Origin: Cystobasidiomycetes sp. EMM_F5
Lineage: Eukaryota
Length of the DNA stretch: 64,000 bases
Direction: 5' to 3'
Assembly: GCA_051047955.1 (NCBI GenBank)
Contig: JBPGPT010000006.1
Location: 434,001-498,000 of the forward strand
Both the position numbers and the translations under genes were made by a program. Shown piece after piece: positions 51,568 through 60,884 of this stretch (position 1 is its first letter; every line of letters begins with the position of its first letter). The notes under the pieces were generated by a model that ran no database searches, was not told the DNA's origin, and worked only from the letters and a program-made list of their open reading frames with translations.

Positions 51568-51747
51568 GAAATCATCACTGTAGCTTTCCAGATCATACAG
51601 GTCGCTGTGTAGCCATATTATTGTTGTGTATGATATTCTGCCGATCCCCTCTCGATTTCAGGTACACATCTGATTTGCCATGTCGACGTAGCCCAGGTTG
51701 GCAGCGGCTGCCATCTCTTGCTTCTGCCGATACGCATTCCATCCACC

Positions 51748-52104
51748 ATGTCGGCTCTGCAACGTAATGCTCCAGTTGCAATGGGTCTCGGGCTGTCTGC
51801 AATGGGACTCGGAGCCATGGTAGCTCGACGGCCGTTCGCACAATTCTTTGGACTGGCGCATGAATCAAACAGCGGCTTCATACCGGCGCTAGGAGCTAGA
51901 GATCTCGCTTTTGGTGCACTATCCCTCTACTACGCTTACATCGGCAGACCAAAAGATGCAGCACTGGTTACGCTCTTCCTGAGCGCCGTGCCACTAGTGG
52001 ATGCGTGGATCGCATTCCAAGAGGGCGTCTCTCTGTGCACTCTCATCCATCTCGGGGGTGCTGCCGTAGGCGCTTCTCTCAGCTATGCGGTCATCAAATC
52101 ATGA
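51748..52104 (+). CDS. Small membrane protein, DUF4267-like, intronless
   Basis: Four hydrophobic segments with FG, GARDLAFG, VPLVDAW and IH motifs. Confidence 0.72.
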   Translation: MSALQRNAPVAMGLGLSAMGLGAMVARRPFAQFFGLAHESNSGFIPALGARDLAFGALSLYYAYIGRPKDAALVTLFLSAVPLVDAWIAFQEGVSLCTLIHLGGAAVGASLSYAVIKS

Positions 52105-52729
52105 CACGGCAGGTTAAACTTGTCAACATTGCCCGGTTGCGGACATGCATCTGGCATTTTCAAGAAGAGCTGGCGGAGCTGAATGCGATATCAAGGTTCA
52201 TGCTGCAAATTGTTTTGCTGTGCGTACCTTCCACACCAGGCACCGCATACGCCAAATTTGTCACCGTTTGACCAGTTGTGCCTTACAGAGTCCGGCAGTC
52301 TTGGGCAACAATTCAGTCGGCTTGGTCTTTTTTTCGGACTATGACACTCCATCATAGGGAACTCTTGCAACGGAAGCATTGAAAATATTGATTGCATACA
52401 TGTGCATGGAATTGTACATGGAATTCGATCGATCCTATCTAGACCCACATTCCCAGCCCTCTTCTGTGCTTACACAGTTTCCCGCTCGTCGTACTGATAG
52501 CAATCGGCTCTTCTAAGGGCACATTGCTCATGTTGACATGTGCTGAATTATTCATCGTCGGAGTCTGGAGTCCGTAGGGGTTCCTTCTGCTGTTTCGAAT
52601 AGCCTTCCCGACGTACAAATAGACAGAGAGATACGCTTAAGCAGGTATAGGATGACTGCCATAATTATATCACTCACTTTCACCGCCGCGCTTGTTCCAC
52701 CTGCCCGCGCTTCAATACTATCCGTTCGT

Positions 52730-53148
52730 CTACTCCATCCCAGCGAGGCAGAATCCCGCAAACAGAATGTACGAGACGAATCCGGCACCCCTTGACAATT
52801 CGTACACCATGGAAGCGGCGAATAGAGCTCCACTCGCTCCTAATCCTATGATACGCGTAGGCGGAAAAGCTACAACCGTAGCCAGTCCGATATAGAGATA
52901 TCGTAAATAGAGCAGTGTCTCGGACGTGGAGAGCTGAACAGCGAAAGCGATTCTGTAGGCAAATGTGGTCAGTTAGTTGAGCGAGATATGCAAAACTGCA
53001 TCCTGTATCACCTTTGTGCTATCTCTGGGATTTGTTGCTGGAAGCCGTGGGAAAAGCTAGGCGTATATGCATCGGTATACAATGCCTGGGCATGAAATAC
53101 GAGGAATGCGAGCACGGCCACAGTGCAGAGTTTGGATGCGAGATTCAT
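52730..53148 (-). CDS. Small hydrophobic hypothetical membrane protein, 2 exons
   Basis: MNLASKLCTVAVLAFLVFHAQA...EIAQR|IAFAVQL...LYIGLATVVAFPPTRIIGLGASGALF...FCLAGME-TAG. The intron has a CTAAC/CTGAC branch motif. Confidence 0.6.
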
Positions 53149-53332
53149 GGTGTTTTGCAGAGCAACCCGCAACAGTCGGGAGGATGCAGAGAGAATACGG
53201 CAACGAGAAAGTAGAAAGCAATCAGGCACGTGCGCGTAGACGCACCCGCCACCCCCTTCTTCCACAGGCCAAGATAATACATTGTGTAGTTGTCCTTGTT
53301 ATAGAGGCATACGACAACGCAGGTGCTCACTC

Positions 53333-54567
53333 TCAGCCATTGGACGCGCTGGGAAGGCGCGTTGTATCCCTGGCAGCCGCGTCTGTAAAGCCTTGCGTAG
53401 GTACTGTAGAGCCACCGAAGCCTCGGGCGCTGCGTCCTTCCTCTATTGCCATCTCCATCTCATCCGTGGTCTCTTCCGTCTCTTCCGAACCTGCCTTTCT
53501 TACGAAGACCATGGAGCCTGAGAACCAGTAGGTGGGCCATCGCCGTCGGCCGACATTCTGATGTAATTTACCCGAGTTAGCAGAAGCACCTTGCGACCGT
53601 GCAGAAGCCTACATTTATGATCATCGCCCATCCTAACATGACGAGCGAGGATATAAGCACGTTATATATGAGCCGCCACGACATTGCGACAGCTGCAGGT
53701 TGAACCGACGCGATGATAGCAGTGGCTCCACCGCTGGAAAAGAAATGTATGAGCGAGGATAGTGTTGCGGGGCATAAAACTCTTCGTTTTCGCTCACGGA
53801 GGGTGTACAGTTCCTGTAATCTGCATCAGCAGTAGTGATAATGCCATCGAAAGTGCGCCGTTCAGCCAAACGACATGATTCAATTCGCCGGACTGGGTAG
53901 TGTCATCGAGCTGATAGGCAGAAGCGAGGCGGAACAGTCGTGTCAAGCAGACTGCCAGTATGGCACTAAGCACTTGCCCGCCGACCAGATGACGAGGTTG
54001 TGCTAGCGGGGATTCAATCGATGCAAAGGACAGTACGGCAGAAGCACCGAAAGAGGCAACGATCAATATCGTGCCTTCGTTCGGGAAGCCGGCAGCGTTG
54101 ACAATCTCGATGAGGGCGATTCCCACAAAGCTGCCTATTGTCGATAGTATCCATGTCTCGTGTTTTAAGGAAAGATATTTAAGCCATGAGAAGGGTGGGA
54201 AGGGCAGCGGTTCGTACGGCGGTCCGGACTTTGGATCTCTATAGCCAGAGAATCTTCTGAGAAGAGCAGGTAAACGTGCTCTTACATCTTCACTGACTTT
54301 CCAACCATCAGTGAGCTTCCGAGATTTCGGTGTGTCGCGTTTGCCCGACGTTGGAGGAGGCGTCAGCTTATAGCCGGTGCCATTGTTTTGTCCTGGTGGT
54401 GCTGCAGCAGTAGACGGTGTCGGATCGTTGGAGTTCTGCAAAGCCGGCGGCCAATGGCCACCGTTGGAAGACGGATGCGACCGGTCCTGATGCCCTAGCT
54501 TGGAGGACCGTTGCTGTATTGCATTGGGCGGAGGAAGCGGTCCCGTAGACGCAAAGCTATTGGACAT
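53333..54567 (-). CDS. HPP family transmembrane protein
   Basis: VASFGASAVL...SPLAQPR...GGQ and TGTVHPP|GGATA. Last exon reads RRWPTYWF...SASNG-TGA. Confidence 0.9.
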
Positions 54568-54718
54568 GATGCAAGCTGCATGCTTGTCCAAGAAGGCAAT
54601 ACTGTCGTCGGTCTTTTTGGCCTGCCGCGTTCACGTGAAGACGGCCGCGCATAACATCGGATCACTTCTGGTCGTACATGCAGGCATACTGTGGGCGCAT
54701 ACCGTCCTTTAGACAAAT

Positions 54719-56135
54719 CTACGGCCTATGTAATGAGTCTACTGCCTCCGACAAGAGCTTGCCGACTTCTCCTAAGTGTTTTGCAACGCTAATCCCCGCG
54801 TCTTCCCAAATCTTCATTTTGGATAGCGTCTTTTCATGCTCCTGATGCCAAATGGCTCCCGAGTGACCATACATTCTGCTTTGTAGCGTCTGCTGCCCTG
54901 CCACAAAACCTACAACAGGCTTGGGTCTTATCCCGGCAGGCAGGTTCTTACGATACTCTTGTAAGACGCAAGCAGCCTCCTCTTCCACTGCGAGCGAGTC
55001 AAATCAGTACCTCCTGGATAGAGATCTCAGTGCGTACGAACTTTGGCCACCAATCTCGCCAACAAGGCAGATGACTATCGAATATTAATGAGCACAAGCA
55101 GAAAGAGGGCTTTTCGTTGCCTCACCTTTCGTCTTCGGGTCGTCTAACATCCAGGAAAGGGCTTCCCAAGTTCTCGTACTTGGAAAGGGATCACCCCCAA
55201 GACCAAAGACGACCGATTGTCCGAATCCTAGCTCGGATGTGCGAGAAGCCAGCTCATAAGATATCGTACCAGAGCGGGCGGCCAGACCTACATGTCATAT
55301 GTCAGCTACAGCTTGGGCTGGTCTGCGGTGTGCTTACCAACTATGCCTGGCTGATGCACCGCCAAGGGTTGTATACCAATCTTGAATTTGATGTGCGGTA
55401 AAATCATGCCGGGACAGTTTGCGCCTACTACACGGGATCGCTTTTGCGAACGCAGAGCGGCTTGCACCTGTCAGTATGTCAGCGACATGGCTTGTGCCAT
55501 ATGTAAGGCTACTTTCTCACCCTCAATTGATCCTGTGTAGGAATGCCTTCCGCAACCGCTACGATTAGCGGTATTTCTGCTTCGATGCAGTCTATCACGG
55601 CATCTGCCGCTCCTGACAATGGCACGAAGACGGAAGCACAGTAAGGTTTCTCACTTCGAACCGCCTAAGTCATAGCGTATTAATGACTTTCTGATGAAAA
55701 TCATAAGCTGTACTCACCTCTGAAAGGCTTGAGTAGACTGGCTTGCCCAGAAAGTCTCCACCCCTCCCAGGTGACACAGCAGCAACGATGTTTGTTCCAT
55801 ACTTTTGCCCCACGCCATGATGAAAGCTGGGTGGTGCAACAGGGTGAGTTGACTGTAAGCTATAATTAGAAGGGCAGACACTCCTCACGAAGACTGCCGT
55901 GTATATGGTGAGCACTTGTCGATGATGTAGCATTTACATTGCTCACAGCTTTTCCAGTCCCAATCGCCAACACGGGAGCGCCTTCTTTAACGTCAAAGTG
56001 GGAAATTGTCTGCTGGTATTGCTCGCGGACGGGCGCGAACGCAGCGCCCGACGAAGTCGACTGCCATCGCCGTTCGGCGCGTCTCAATGTCTTTTGTGCA
56101 TCGTTCCAGCGATACACTGAACGTCTTGCTTGCAT
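54719..56135 (-). CDS. Divergent succinyl-CoA-synthetase alpha-like subunit, probably mitochondrial
   Basis: Presequence ...RRWQST, YGTNIVAAVSPG, SVFVP, AEGIP, GANCPG, ARSGTISYE, GLGGDPF, VGEIGG and phospho-His motif YGHSGA. Confidence 0.88.
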
Positions 56136-56273
56136 CAGTATTGTACAAAGGTCAGAAATGCAAACCAGTTGGTTTGGCTCTTGCGCGCGGGCGGGCGAAG
56201 CACGCGGAGCTCCACTTTCGTAGAAAACGCCGACCGCCATGGCTTTGCTTAATTTCTGCTGTGACTACCATCT

Positions 56274-57539
56274 ATGGCCTCCAATGTTCATAGCACCATT
56301 CCCAGGCTCTCCCGAATCGCTCGTTCAGCAAAGTGCAGCTGCCGCCGGCTCCACCTGGACAGCCGACAGTCGCAAACGCTGCTAGAAAAGGTACGCTGGC
56401 TGGCTGCCCTGGATATCTAGCTAAATCCACGGCACAGTACGGCTTGTCCACATCTGAAGCGAGCTCGTCCATCCGGAACCAAGATACCTGGACTCTGCGA
56501 CTGCTGCCGTCGCGGGCCTTTCACAAACCTGTCCTTGTGTGCAAATCAGCCAAGGGCACAGAAAGCACCTTAGAACTCGATATCAATAATGAAGAAGTTG
56601 ACTCGGGCGGATTTCGCGTTTGGGCAAGCGATATGCACGTGGAGGCCGACCAGGTGAACGGCCTTCATGATATTGTCCAAAAGGTGTGGAAGGCTTGGCG
56701 CGGTGTGGATGCGATACAGATAGCATGCAATGTATCCGTGCGGAACAATGCATGGAAGGTGTAAGCCTTGTTGCTGCTGCTTGTCCCCACACCCAAAGCG
56801 TGAGCTAATCTGACGTGGAAACAGGGAATCTCCGACTGTAGAGATAGACAATTTTGCCTTCTATCGTCAGCCTGATCTGGCAGCTTTGGCCCCACATGCA
56901 CCCGCGCATCCGCTCGAAAAGCAAGCAGACCAGGACAACTTGTTTTACGTAAAGCATAAAGGTGGTAACATCGGGTGCTACGGTTACGGAGCGGGCAACG
57001 GAATGGCTACACTTGACGTGCTGGCCTCGATGGGCGCTAAGGTGCGTTCGCGCTTTTCAAGCTTCGATTCCCCGCTGACTTTGTCGAACGTAAAAAGCCC
57101 GCCAATTTTCTGGATGGAGGAGGCGGAGCTACCCCTCGGAATGTCCAGGCTGCTCTTGAAGTTCTAGCCGCAGACACTGATGTTCGAGCTATCTTCATCA
57201 ACGCTTTTGGCGGTCTTACAAAAGTAGTGAGTCCTGCGTGGTTTGGCAAACAAGCTCTTTAATCGATCTATTGCGTTGAAGGATCTCATCGCCAAAGGCC
57301 TTCTCGAATTTGCAAAAGCAAGAGAGGCGGCTGGTAATAAGATTGCGCCTGTCATAGCACGTCTGCGGGGAACCGGCGAGCAAGACGCGAACGATTTAGT
57401 AGGTAATAATGTAAATCTAAACAGGAGTGCCTCATGTAACACCTTCCTACAGCTAAATGGGCCGGAAGGTCTTCCATATATACAAGCGGTCAAAGACTTG
57501 GAAGAAGCGGCGCTAGCAGTCGCCCGCCTGGCTACATAG
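56274..57539 (+). CDS. Divergent succinyl-CoA-synthetase beta-like subunit with truncated ATP-grasp domain
   Basis: Presequence ...RRLHLDSRQSQTLLEK|YG, IDNFAFYRQPDL, GNIGCYGYGAGNGMATLD, PANFLDGGGGA, FINAFGG and VIARLRGT. Confidence 0.85.
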
Positions 57540-57551
57540 TATGATGTGATT

Positions 57552-57619
57552 CAACACAACACAACACAACACAACACAACACAACACAACACAATACAAC
57601 ACAACACAACACAACACAA
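57552..57619. repeat. (CAACA)n pentanucleotide microsatellite, ~13.5 copies
   Basis: Seen directly, with one C>T interruption at 57595. Lies between two convergent stop codons. Confidence 0.97.
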
Positions 57620-57660
57620 TTAAATTAGGATAGAATGTAAAGACCATACAATCACTGTTA

Positions 57661-60600
57661 CTAGCCGTCCCATTGCTGCACAACACTGCCTGTCCTTAGA
57701 TTCGAGGATTTACGAGGCTTCGGTAGATTACCTGCCAGCGACTGCCGCGTAGGACTCTGTAGTTGAGATTTTGATTCGAGCCGCATATCGTCTGGCATTG
57801 TTACAATGATTTCTCGGTCATCACCAAAGCGGAAATTGTCAGAAACGATGTCTGAATCGTATCGTCGAATTTTGTAGTCGAACAGTTGCCCCGCCTTGAT
57901 CTTGCGGACGTTCCATGCGACCACGAATGGACCGGTCGAGGTAACGATAGTCTTCTCCAGTCCGCCTGGCGCCGTATTGAATCTGTTGTGAAGGAAATAT
58001 CAGAGTCGTACTGTGAGCAACGTGCGGAAGATGACTTACTTTGCGGTCGTGAAATTGATCTGATGTGAACCAATTGCGAGTTCGTGTTCCGGCTTTAGAG
58101 CTAGCCTCTTTGGCTGAGGCTTAGCATTCGCAGGGAAACTGCGAGTAACTGTGTGCGCGGGGAACAGGGTGAGCTCGCTATCATGGATGCCGCAAAACAA
58201 CTTACACCCAGAGCTACCCTTGTAGCGCCCTTCAGTAATCTCGGTATCGATAAAGAGTAACGCCTTTGCCGTTGTGGCCACCATATATCGGCCATCGGCA
58301 GAGACGTCAATGCCTATGATGGCTTGTCCGAATGCGGGGAGTGCTGTCTTTGCGTTCTTTCCAATCGAATCGAATAGGCGCACTTCGCCCTTGTCGCTCG
58401 CCACAACTAGATGACCTGCTTCTGTAGTCGCCGCGGCCGAGAAGTTGGTCTTTGTCGATGCTGCATACTGCTTGAATTCGGATTCCACTAGCTTGGAACC
58501 AGACAATCGAGGATCGATACGGAAAATAGCATTCTTAGATGTACCGATGAATGTTTGCTGTTGGGTTGTCTGCGCGAACTTGCTGTCTGATAGGAAGTTG
58601 TTGATGTCTAGTCCGTCCTTCACTTTGAACTCGTCCACAACCTTGCCCGTTGTCAGATCCAGCTTGTACAGAGCACTGGAGTTGTGCGGATCCGATATAA
58701 TCATTGACATATCTTGATCATGCAGCATGACCTTGCCTGGGGTGAAAGTCGTTTTCGAACCAGGTTTTGCAATACCAGCAATGTTTGTCACAAACTGTAC
58801 GTATATTTGTTTAGCTTTCATCTTCACGCATCTAAAACTTCTGCCACGCACTTTCAGCTTCTTCCCGGTTCCTTTCTGGTTTTCGAAAACGCCAATCATA
58901 TCGCCGCGCACGACGAAGGACAGGCCCTTGTAGCCCACAGCCAACAGGGAATTCTTTGCACCGTTGGTTTGTCCAGAAGGCTGATCCTCGTCAGTCTCGG
59001 TCTCTGTTGATTCCTCCTCTTCCGAATAAAGCTCCTCTAAAGGTGGGTCCTGGGCCGGTTCCTCATCCTCTTCTTCGTAGTATGGCTCGGCATCTTCCAT
59101 CTCGACGTCAGCTGCGTATATCTGCCGGAAGTATTGCTGTTCGTCAGGCTGTAAAGCATGTTTACAGGTTAGCATGTACAGCATGATGTAGTGAGTGGCG
59201 TACTTACCTTATTCTTTCGCCAGCTCCCATAGCCGTTGTTAGCCTCGAAGATACCCTGGGTGAATGCGTCGTTCATCTTCTCATAGGTAGCTCGATCGTT
59301 GTATTTGAGCAACCACGTGAAGCTCTGGTCGGTTTTCTCGTTGACTATTGAGACAATGACTGAGCAGGAACCGCTGTCGAAATGGATGGGTAAGCCGCCC
59401 TTGATAGCTATGCTGATCCAGACGTAACCATCATTTCCGGCCACTGACAGCCAACATGAGTAGTCTTTGTGCTGGACAAGCCAGAGAGACGTGACGACGG
59501 CATTTTCTTGTAGCATGAACATTCCAGTTGCAGCGTCGTAGAGATTGATATCGCATGTCTCGGTTATCAGAAGTTGTCGGCCGTCCGGAGGATCTCGAGT
59601 CGCATTGCTGATGTCTTGCTTGCTCGGCGCAGGATCAGCCTCAGGCTCCGGCTCAGCCTCAGCAACTTGAGCTCCGCGGAGAGGTGCTGATCCTGATGAT
59701 GGCGGGGCTAGAGCAGGTGTAGCCAAATATTCGTTCAAGTCTCGGGACTTGCCCTTATCTTCGTACGATGTGCGAATTGGCGGCTGTGGGGATGCACTGA
59801 CTCGTCGAGGCGGACTGCTTGCAGAATCTGCTTTCGAAGGCGACGATGCGATCGAGGCGGCTTGACCCCTGGCGCTGCCAGGGGAAACCTGGAGTTTAGC
59901 AATCTGCGAAGTCAGCTGGTCTGCAACTTCGTCATCGGAGGACGATGACGGTGACGGTGCACGGAAGAGTGGGGTCTTCTTGATGGGCGACGGTGTTTTG
60001 GTATGGGTAGAGCGAGGCTTGGGAGTAGCAGCAGTGACTGGAACCGCAACAGGCTTTGGCGCCTGCGGCTCGACGAAACGGCTTGACACGTTGAAATCAG
60101 CATGCGTTTACAGTGTAAGCGCAGAGCTCGGTCGTACCGGTATTGAAGTAGTTCTGCTCGGGACACATTCTTTGCGTCTGCCATGTTGTCGACTTCCCAC
60201 ATGCATCGGTAAATGGTCATTTCGAACTCTTCGCGTTCTTCTTTGGTTGCATCTTCCACGACGAGCATGTATGAATCTTCTTCGGATACGGAGTCGACGT
60301 ACGTGTATGCGATAGCATCGGGGGAGTCCGAGTCCGCCGCACTAGCAGGCTGTATTGTGAATTGCATCCGAGCGTCAATGAGCTGGTAATATTCATCCAC
60401 GCCTAGTGAAGGCGATACATCAGTATTGAACCTCTTCCCTGAAACGGATTGCTCACTTTCAGCCTCTTCGCCCAACAGTTGTGCTTCTTCGCCTGATACG
60501 CTTCTTTGCGCAATCAGTTCGAACTGGTAAGGTTTGGATGTGCTCCGAATGGACGCCGTCGCTGTTTGAAAGCTTCGAGTCGTGATCATTGCGTCAGGAT

Positions 60601-60884
60601 TCAAACGTGCTTTCCGTTTATTGATGCCGCTCACAGGCATTCTTTCGAGCCCTTGACGGTGATTGTCGGCCGGACGAGGTAGAAGCATCCTTCAATCTTT
60701 GCCAGCTCTTGATTGGCAGCATTCGTCCCGATGACTTTGCCGTAGACTAGACAATGAAGGTCGTCAGACGCCATATCATCGTCATTCCGCAGGAACAGGC
60801 TACTCACGGCTCCTGATCTGGCAGTATGGACCGTGTCTCAGCAATTCAGACGCGCCAGCCTGCAATGATACTCACCATATTCAT
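57661..60884 (-). CDS. VID27: Vacuolar import and degradation protein 27
   Basis: N-terminal CFYLVRP...KGSKECL, PH-like region, NSLLAVGYK, KVMLHDQD, FRIDPRLSG, KNAKTALP and NFRFGDDREIIV. Confidence 0.93.

What the first reader, a model, noticed from the sequence alone, without database searches (positions are those of the whole stretch)
54719..57539. Head-to-head SCS-like alpha/beta pair in which beta has lost the nucleotide-binding ATP-grasp core
Seen in the sequence: the alpha-like gene (ATG 56135, minus) and beta-like gene (ATG 56274, plus) share a 138-bp divergent intergenic region, and both begin with Arg-rich presequences. Alpha keeps the CoA-binding motifs and the active-site GHSGA His. 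In beta, only ~15 residues separate K|YG from the segment matching SucC 'LYL..VDR...V'. Established knowledge: E. coli SucC has ~90 residues there, including the K-x-Q-x-x-x-GGRGK nucleotide loop. The HEYQ motif reads DSRQ, and EINP reads approximately ACNV. The ligase domain is intact but altered at substrate positions (VNGAG to GYGAG, GIV to GLT). Inference: this is not the TCA-cycle enzyme but a co-expressed heterodimer that probably cannot use ADP/GDP. It may act as a CoA transferase/hydrolase or acyl-phosphate-forming enzyme on another acyl-CoA, or have a regulatory role. Short divergent promoters are common in this window, so linkage alone is weak evidence; the pairing of two complementary subunits is the stronger point.
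Basis: partly seen in the sequence, partly recalled or inferred. Interest (0 to 1): 0.8.

Follow-up and report, generated by a model that had tools for sequence, protein, structure and literature searches.

The report
Succinyl-CoA ligase copy lacking nucleotide site
This fungus has a second, intact copy of the two-part Krebs-cycle enzyme succinyl-CoA ligase that keeps its CoA- and phosphate-handling half but has lost the part that binds ADP or GDP, a design shared with other yeast-like fungi that points to an undescribed reaction.

Summary
Observation confirmed. Two intact intron-rich genes lie head to head, 138 bp apart: alpha' (346 aa) and beta' (329 aa). Beta' is about 76 residues shorter than E. 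coli SucC at the ATP-grasp lid, and the 47-bp intron there cannot hide an exon. Normal LSC1, LSC2 and a likely ATP-citrate lyase lie elsewhere in the genome.

This is not a private lesion. Beta' and alpha' each form their own group among basidiomycete fungi. Relatives are fused (Trichosporon; 3 of 5 fungal metagenome loci), head to head (1 of 5) or apparently adjacent (Atractiella). In 18 aligned beta' rows the nucleotide-site residues are mostly or wholly gone, while the phosphate-binding helix is invariant. All 11 alpha' rows keep the catalytic His and Glu and share a remodelled His loop. Silent sites are saturated while the proteins stay 64-76% identical.

Best reading (inferred, 0.4): a mitochondrial, nucleotide-free, phosphate-dependent CoA transferase working through phosphohistidine. 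Rivals are CoA-recycling phosphorolysis and a sensor role. The substrate is unknown and there are no expression data. Ten paper searches found no description. The scan had no note on this family, only an unrelated bacterial parallel.

The parts
54719..56135 (-). alpha' gene (SCS alpha-like, 346 aa). Exons 56135-55947, 55893-55889, 55826-55718, 55664-55521, 55467-55338, 55287-55126, 55074-55042, 54987-54719
   Evidence: open spliced model with 7 GT-AG introns; Pfam CoA_binding and Ligase_CoA hits on single exons; falls in the alpha' group, 100/100
54863..54865 (-). codon of the catalytic His (His299 of the model; E. coli His246 alpha) in the GHSGA loop
   Evidence: sequence; His kept in 11 of 11 alpha' rows
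55889..55893 (-). 5-nt micro-exon of alpha'
   Evidence: needed to keep the frame and to match relatives after the GTGKA motif; not confirmed by RNA
56136..56273 (.). 138-bp divergent intergenic region, presumed shared promoter
   Evidence: locus L022 has the same head-to-head layout with 158 bp
56274..57539 (+). beta' gene (SCS beta-like without ATP-grasp lid, 329 aa). Exons 56274-56390, 56438-56760, 56825-57041, 57098-57226, 57282-57398, 57453-57539
   Evidence: open spliced model with 5 GT-AG introns; P0001 is its last 225 residues; Ligase_CoA but no ATP-grasp_2 hit for P0001 and no Pfam hit for exon 2
56391..56437 (+). intron 1 of beta' (47 bp, phase 0, K|YG); the lid deletion follows just downstream in exon 2
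   Evidence: same intron position in L024 and L018 and in this genome's canonical LSC2
56985..56996 (+). YGAG: Tyr in place of SucC Asn264, followed by the intact beta power-helix start
   Evidence: sequence; Tyr and GAG in 18 of 18 beta' rows

Best explanation
Alpha' and beta' form a mitochondrial heterodimer, a single chain in some fungi, that arose by duplication of fungal LSC1 and LSC2. It keeps only 'site I' of succinyl-CoA synthetase: CoA site, phosphate site between the two power helices, and catalytic His. With inorganic phosphate it would turn an acyl-CoA into an enzyme-bound acyl-phosphate and then phospho-His. With no nucleotide site to discharge into, the phospho-His would activate a second carboxylate and hand it to CoA. 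The net reaction is a phosphate-dependent CoA transfer (acyl-CoA + acid' = acid + acyl'-CoA), probably between dicarboxylates, at a remodelled pocket. Shown: gene structure, paralogy, loss of the nucleotide site, retention of site I residues, family-wide linkage, purifying selection. Inferred: dimer, mitochondrial location, catalysis, the CoA-transfer step and the substrate class.
For: Site II lost: in 18 beta' rows K46, R54, E99, E107 and K215 are kept in 0, E197 in 2, N199 in 4, D213 in 4. None of 36 GYGAG proteins has GGRGK or EINP, against 119 and 145 of 148 canonical betas (the 36 include fragments and near-copies). Site I kept: GAG(265-267), D288 and GG(320-321) in 18 of 18; alpha His, Glu, RSGT and Tyr159 in 11 of 11. 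His246, Glu208 and Glu197 roles are from PMC10342173 (passages); lid and power-helix roles from PMC11494057 (passages). The His loop changed in step: I252W and M245 to an aromatic in 11 of 11 alpha' and 0 of 20 canonical rows. Partnership: fused in Trichosporon asahii and in L012, L016, L018; head to head in L022; consecutive accessions and equal contig length in Atractiella. Selection: 72 of 95 residues identical with L018 but only 5 of 33 four-fold sites (alpha); 53 of 76 and 47 of 73 residues with 6 of 24 and 7 of 23 sites (beta). SCS enzymes accept itaconate and other analogues (PMC8085960, passages).
Against: No activity, expression or localisation data. No neighbouring gene points to a pathway. 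The genome already has ordinary CoA transferases (two PF02515 loci, one PF01144 locus), so a phospho-His transferase is not obviously needed. I know of no CoA transferase that works through phospho-His (recalled). N264Y might block rather than reshape the acyl pocket. An alpha' partner was not found for the Ustilaginales beta' proteins among the 120 of 7969 hits listed. The public annotation starts beta at an internal Met without a presequence.
Confidence: 0.4

Rival explanations
1. Same site I chemistry, but the net job is to release CoA. The enzyme phosphorolyses an unwanted acyl-CoA (for example a by-product of normal SCS such as malyl- or itaconyl-CoA), and the phosphoryl group is lost to water, released as acyl-phosphate or removed by a phosphatase.
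For: All site I and site II evidence above fits equally. In five clusters of relatives beta' is predicted in one chain with a PP2C-like stretch (PP2C hit at E 2e-4 to 4e-4 in 2 of 5). AllFGH of E. coli, which includes FdrA, catalyses a nucleotide-free phosphorolysis (PMC11326118, passages), and alpha' weakly hits the FdrA model.
Against: It would waste a thioester that a simple thioesterase could cleave. The PP2C-linked forms are a separate subgroup of beta' and may be processed into two proteins. The FdrA score is 21 bits against a cut-off of 433.
Confidence: 0.25
2. A non-turnover sensor or regulator: the pair binds an acyl-CoA or is phosphorylated on His as a signal, or passes phosphate to another protein such as nucleoside-diphosphate kinase.
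For: The His loop is remodelled in all alpha' rows. A phosphatase-like partner occurs in one subgroup. Phosphate donation from SCS to mitochondrial NDPK is raised as a possibility in PMC10342173 (passage).
Against: Every site I catalytic residue tested is invariant, and the pocket changes are themselves invariant (N264Y, V289G, V323T in 18 of 18), as expected for a new substrate rather than for decay.
Confidence: 0.17
3. It is still an NDP-forming ligase for another acid, using the remaining large ATP-grasp subdomain, a separate lid protein, or the canonical beta subunit in a mixed complex.
For: The large subdomain is retained and folds like SCS beta in a model of relative P0004. Some relatives keep a full-length but degenerate lid (L022, P0007, five PP2C-linked forms). 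The window keeps N199.
Against: No nucleotide- or Mg-binding position is conserved across the family. PF08442 finds only LSC2 and the C201 (ACL-like) locus in this genome, so no free-standing lid gene was seen (the search scores only the best candidates).
Confidence: 0.13
4. A decaying duplicate, or an assembly or gene-model artefact.
For: No RNA evidence is in hand. The public model lacks exon 1. The family is patchy: R. toruloides lists only three PF00549 genes, ACL, LSC1 and LSC2 (PMC7873862 supplementary file 3).
Against: Both frames are open over 12 canonical introns. The same deletion junction and introns recur in other fungi. Silent sites are saturated at 64-76% protein identity.
Confidence: 0.03

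Closest known systems
Succinyl-CoA synthetase / succinate-CoA ligase (E. coli SucCD, fungal LSC1/LSC2; PDB 1jkj, 2fp4, 3ufx)
   Same: Alpha-beta layout, CoA-binding and ligase domains, His246/Glu208 alpha, both power helices. Best PDB sequence hit 3ufx_B at E 5e-35. Model of relative P0004 aligns to 2fp4_B at Z 21.9, rmsd 4.0, 280 residues. First introns of both genes are shared with this genome's LSC1 and LSC2.
   Different: Lid of about 76 residues deleted; K46, GRGK, E197, D213 and K215 absent; N264Y, V289G, V323T; remodelled His loop; separate groups in both trees; present beside the canonical enzyme.
E. coli FdrA (AllF) in oxamic transcarbamylase AllFGH (PMC11326118)
   Same: A distant relative of the alpha subunit (NF004760 hit at E about 1e-4) in a complex that does a phosphorolysis without nucleotide (passages): a precedent for this kind of chemistry.
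   Different: Score far below cut-off. Three-gene bacterial system acting on oxalurate, not an acyl-CoA. The beta' remnant of the ATP-grasp domain is SCS-like. AllG and AllH partners were not searched.
Fused beta-alpha SCS-like proteins of Ascomycota (ESM Atlas clusters of 724 aa, 335 members, and 634 aa, 105 members)
   Same: Nearest clusters to the Trichosporon fusion by features (0.93 and 0.91), with Ligase_CoA, Succ_CoA_lig and CoA_binding.
   Different: No sequences or alignment were obtained. Only three Pfam families are shown per cluster, so whether they lack the nucleotide site is untested. Only automatic names, no described function seen.
Family I and family III CoA transferases (PF01144, PF02515)
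   Same: Net reaction proposed here.
   Different: Unrelated folds; they work through Glu or Asp acyl intermediates (recalled), not phospho-His. No hit of these families to alpha' or beta'.

Membership tests
Succinyl-CoA synthetase (NDP-forming) | alpha subunit with CoA-binding and ligase domains | tested here: met
   Pfam hits on window exons and on P0122; motifs aligned to SucD
Succinyl-CoA synthetase (NDP-forming) | catalytic His246 and Glu208 of alpha | tested here: met
   kept in the window and in 11 of 11 alpha' rows; roles from PMC10342173
Succinyl-CoA synthetase (NDP-forming) | two power helices that bind phosphate (alpha RSGT, beta GAG) | tested here: met
   11 of 11 and 18 of 18 rows; motif assignment to the helices is recalled, their role is from PMC11494057
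Succinyl-CoA synthetase (NDP-forming) | ATP-grasp lid with K46 and the GGRGK loop | tested here: not met
   deleted in the window; GGRGK in 0 of 36 GYGAG proteins; residue roles recalled from E. coli structures
Succinyl-CoA synthetase (NDP-forming) | site II residues E197, N199, D213 of beta | tested here: not met
   window has A, N, S; kept in 2, 4 and 4 of 18 beta' rows
Succinyl-CoA synthetase (NDP-forming) | succinate pocket N264 and GIV of beta, Y159 of alpha | tested here: not met
   N264Y and V323T in 18 of 18; GG320-321 and alpha Y159 kept; substrate roles recalled. Thr at 323 also occurs in canonical 3ufx_B
Succinyl-CoA synthetase (NDP-forming) | NCBIfam cut-offs for the alpha and beta subunits | tested here: not met
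   beta' 132-233 bits against 370; alpha' relatives 248-298 against 336. P0001 is a partial model and the window's alpha itself was not scanned whole
Succinyl-CoA synthetase (NDP-forming) | succinyl-CoA + NDP + Pi = succinate + CoA + NTP | not testable with these tools
   needs an assay
FdrA / AllFGH | score over the NF004760 cut-off | tested here: not met
   21 bits against 433
FdrA / AllFGH | AllG and AllH partner genes | not tested
   not searched; no such Pfam hit among the neighbouring frames scanned
ATP-citrate lyase / citryl-CoA synthetase | citrate-binding and intact ATP-grasp domains | tested here: not met
   no Citrate_bind or ATP-grasp_2 hit for P0001 or P0122; a separate ACL-like locus lies at G000:C201
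CoA transferases, families I and III | PF01144 or PF02515 domain | tested here: not met
   no hit; the proposal is 'works like', not membership

The most novel reading that the evidence does not exclude
A fungal family, perhaps reaching into Ascomycota, in which succinyl-CoA synthetase was rebuilt in steps (lid degenerate, then lid deleted, then subunits fused) into a nucleotide-free enzyme that moves CoA between acids through phosphohistidine with phosphate as catalyst: a kind of CoA transferase unrelated to the known families. In one subgroup it is made in one chain with a PP2C-like phosphatase that could discharge the phospho-His.
Probability: 0.35. Interest if true: 0.85.

Novelty: new variant of a known kind. 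Interest (0 to 1): 0.66.

Why it matters
The nucleotide site is what makes succinyl-CoA synthetase an energy-conserving enzyme. A conserved pair that dropped it, while keeping the phospho-His machinery and changing both subunits in step, implies a reaction or signalling role not described in the papers searched. It also gives a natural 'site I only' enzyme for testing the partial reactions. These genes are now annotated as ordinary succinyl-CoA ligase subunits, which would mislead metabolic models of smuts, Trichosporon and related yeasts. Two small soluble subunits, or one fused chain, make the test simple.

Tried and rejected
RNA evidence: no RNA run was listed; this says nothing about expression.
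ESM Atlas with exon 2 alone: best score 0.80, uninformative.
Single-sequence fold of the fused protein P0122: pLDDT 35, discarded. A joint alpha plus beta alignment mixed the two ligase domains and was not used. No model of the dimer or of site I was obtained, and no complex prediction was run, because the halves of a natural fusion would pass by likeness to solved SCS.
Prokaryotic origin: all 6 genome-contig loci have NGAG. Of 15 metagenome loci, 10 are prokaryote-type sucC; the one with YGAG (L025) is a self-inverted, frameshifted contig whose other copy reads VNGAG, so it was rejected as an error. The DGGGG motif alone is not diagnostic, since canonical bacterial SucC has it too.
Pathway hints from neighbours: none shared (HPP, DUF4267, VID27, MCM10, Ish1 and a kinase in the window; FMN reductase and ribosomal L1 in L022).
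Mutant-fitness data: R. toruloides has no such pair in its annotation table.
The beta tree is the quick tree only; the careful search did not finish.
Papers: ten searches listed nothing on this family; most results were seen as listings only. Two structure papers on the succinate site and the His loop were not held. The library lacks most subscription journals and bioRxiv supplements were not seen.
Earlier scan notes: none by sequence or in this genome.

Full report
1. What is in the sequence. The region holds two intron-rich fungal genes, head to head, with 138 bp between the start codons. Joined by coordinates, the minus-strand gene gives an open 346-aa alpha-like protein from 8 exons, one of them 5 nt long. 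The plus-strand gene gives an open 329-aa beta-like protein from 6 exons. All 12 introns are GT-AG and 47-64 bp. A public protein, P0001, annotated in a Cystobasidiomycetes yeast, equals the last 225 residues of the beta model but starts at an internal Met. The window's alpha protein did not appear among the 120 hits listed, so the alpha model rests on the sequence and on relatives.

2. The deletion is real. Against E. coli SucC, beta has 15 residues where SucC has 91, between the first YG and the strand at L108 (read by hand). Anchor-to-anchor spacing is 37 in the window, 41-48 in seven relatives, 111 in SucC (113 in register) and 101-123 in 93 canonical betas. The only intron near the gap is 47 bp. 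L024 has a phase-0 intron at the same codon and the same short junction after it; L018 has a matching donor and junction. An AlphaFold model of relative P0004 (pLDDT 83) matches SCS beta (2fp4_B, Z 21.9, rmsd 4.0, 280 aligned). Its residues 23-160 span residues 1-234 of an isolated ATP-grasp domain with only 119-135 aligned, as expected if the inserted lid is missing. Caveats: the model is of a relative, its alignment was mostly canonical betas, and P0004 probably reads through the first intron.

3. It is an extra pair. The genome has a beta with GGRGK, EINP and VNGAG at G000:C182, a canonical alpha at C210:64-65 kb and an ACL-like locus at C201. The first intron of beta' sits at the same codon and phase as in that LSC2, and the first intron of alpha' matches LSC1. 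This favours duplication within fungi; one shared intron per gene is suggestive, not proof. No credible prokaryotic member was found.

4. It is a family. Of the proteins fetched, 36 carry the GYGAG motif (fragments and near-copies included) and none has GGRGK or EINP; among 148 canonical betas of at least 370 aa, 119 and 145 do. Named members come from Pseudozyma, Melanopsichium, Parajaminaea, Sporisorium, Violaceomyces, Ceraceosorus, Tilletiaria, Atractiella and Trichosporon. In a quick tree of the C-terminal region, 22 beta' rows of 52 lie on one side of a branch (SH-aLRT 99). In a full tree, 11 alpha' rows of 32 do so (100/100). Both trees are midpoint-rooted for drawing only and use a chosen subset of the fetched proteins. 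Some members keep a full-length lid with degenerate motifs (L022, P0007, five PP2C-linked forms), which suggests decay before deletion; the order was not tested on a rooted tree. R. toruloides lacks the pair in its annotation table (PMC7873862, supplementary file 3 searched). The ESM Atlas places the Trichosporon fusion nearest to two ascomycete clusters of 724 and 634 aa; that is a lead only.

5. The two genes go together. Trichosporon asahii encodes one 672-aa beta'-alpha' chain. Of 15 metagenome loci, 5 are fungal beta' genes: three run on into alpha' across the fusion junction (L012, L016, L018), one is head to head with 158 bp between starts (L022), and one ends inside beta' (L024). No alpha' was seen for the Ustilaginales members, but only 120 of 7969 hits were listed.

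6. Both genes are under selection. Against L018, alpha exons 5-6 share 72 of 95 residues but only 5 of 33 four-fold third positions. The conserved beta core shares 53 of 76 residues with L018 and 47 of 73 with L016, with 6 of 24 and 7 of 23 such positions. This is a rough proxy on the most conserved stretches, not a codon model.

7. What was lost and what was kept. In SCS, His246 alpha is phosphorylated near Glu208 alpha and swings to Glu197 beta at the nucleotide site (PMC10342173, passages). The lid closes over the nucleotide and two power helices hold phosphate at the CoA site (PMC11494057, passages). The roles of K46, GRGK, N199, D213, N264 and GIV are recalled. In 18 beta' rows K46, R54, E99, E107 and K215 are kept in 0, E197 in 2, N199 in 4 and D213 in 4; the lid columns are largely gaps and their alignment is loose. 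GAG265-267, D288, GG320-321 and D219 are kept in all 18, and N264Y, V289G and V323T are shared by all 18. In 11 alpha' rows the His, Glu, RSGT and Tyr159 are invariant. T97A, G140L/V, M245 to an aromatic and I252W are found in all 11 and in none of 20 canonical rows; R244 is lost in all 11 and kept in 17 of 20. So the nucleotide site is gone, the CoA/phosphate/His site is intact, the acyl pocket is changed in a fixed way, and the swinging loop changed with it.

8. How it most likely works (inference). An enzyme with site I only can still go from acyl-CoA plus phosphate to acyl-phosphate to phospho-His. The simplest way to turn over is to run these steps backwards with another acid, giving a phosphate-dependent CoA transfer (0.40). 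The alternatives are loss of the phosphoryl group to water or to a phosphatase, giving CoA recycling (0.25); a sensor or phospho-relay role (0.17); residual nucleotide use (0.13); and decay or artefact (0.03). The kept GG backbone and alpha Tyr159 suggest a dicarboxylate; SCS enzymes accept itaconate and similar acids (PMC8085960, passages). Against the lead idea: ordinary CoA transferases exist in this genome, no neighbour names a pathway, and nothing here measures activity, expression or location.

9. Relation to what is known. It descends from SCS but fails the defining nucleotide-site features and the NCBIfam cut-offs, so it should not be filed as a succinate-CoA ligase. E. coli AllFGH, which contains the distant relative FdrA, carries out a phosphorolysis without nucleotide (PMC11326118, passages) and is the nearest precedent in kind, not a family match. 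Ten searches of the held library listed no description of this fungal family; most subscription journals are not held.

10. Verdict. Observation confirmed; interpretation partly supported and extended from one locus to a conserved, co-changing, often fused pair. New variant of a known kind; interest 0.66.

Noticed in passing
P0126, P0249, P0136, P0145, P0252: In five protein clusters, two named as Ceraceosorus and Tilletiaria, a long-lid beta' is predicted in one chain with a PP2C-like stretch (weak Pfam hit in 2 of 5). A second presequence-like motif precedes it, as in mitochondrial tandem precursors cut after import (analogy recalled).
   Followed up: partly
window 55889-55893 (minus): 5-nt micro-exon in alpha', flanked by 53- and 62-bp introns.
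   Followed up: partly
window about 57553-57620: (ACACA)n microsatellite just downstream of the beta' stop codon.
   Followed up: no
window 56274-56585: The public model P0001 omits the first 104 residues of beta', including exon 1 and the presequence; probably a gene-calling error.
   Followed up: yes
P0121 (Atractiella): The 687-aa model holds two near-identical tandem copies of beta': a tandem duplication or an assembly or annotation merge.
   Followed up: no
L022:5037-5400: This beta' keeps a lid of normal length with the Lys and GGRGK loop replaced, a possible intermediate stage, in the same head-to-head layout as the window.
   Followed up: partly
L025: A self-inverted, frameshift-rich contig (96% identical to its own reverse complement) of an ordinary bacterial sucCD; its YGAG is a sequencing artefact.
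   Followed up: yes
window 51634-54630 and 58036-60691: Neighbours are a DUF4267 protein, an HPP-family membrane protein and VID27; no metabolic cluster.
   Followed up: partly
P0116: Labelled Quercus suber, but it groups loosely with eukaryotic canonical betas and has an unrelated tail; possibly a fungal contaminant (not tested).
   Followed up: no
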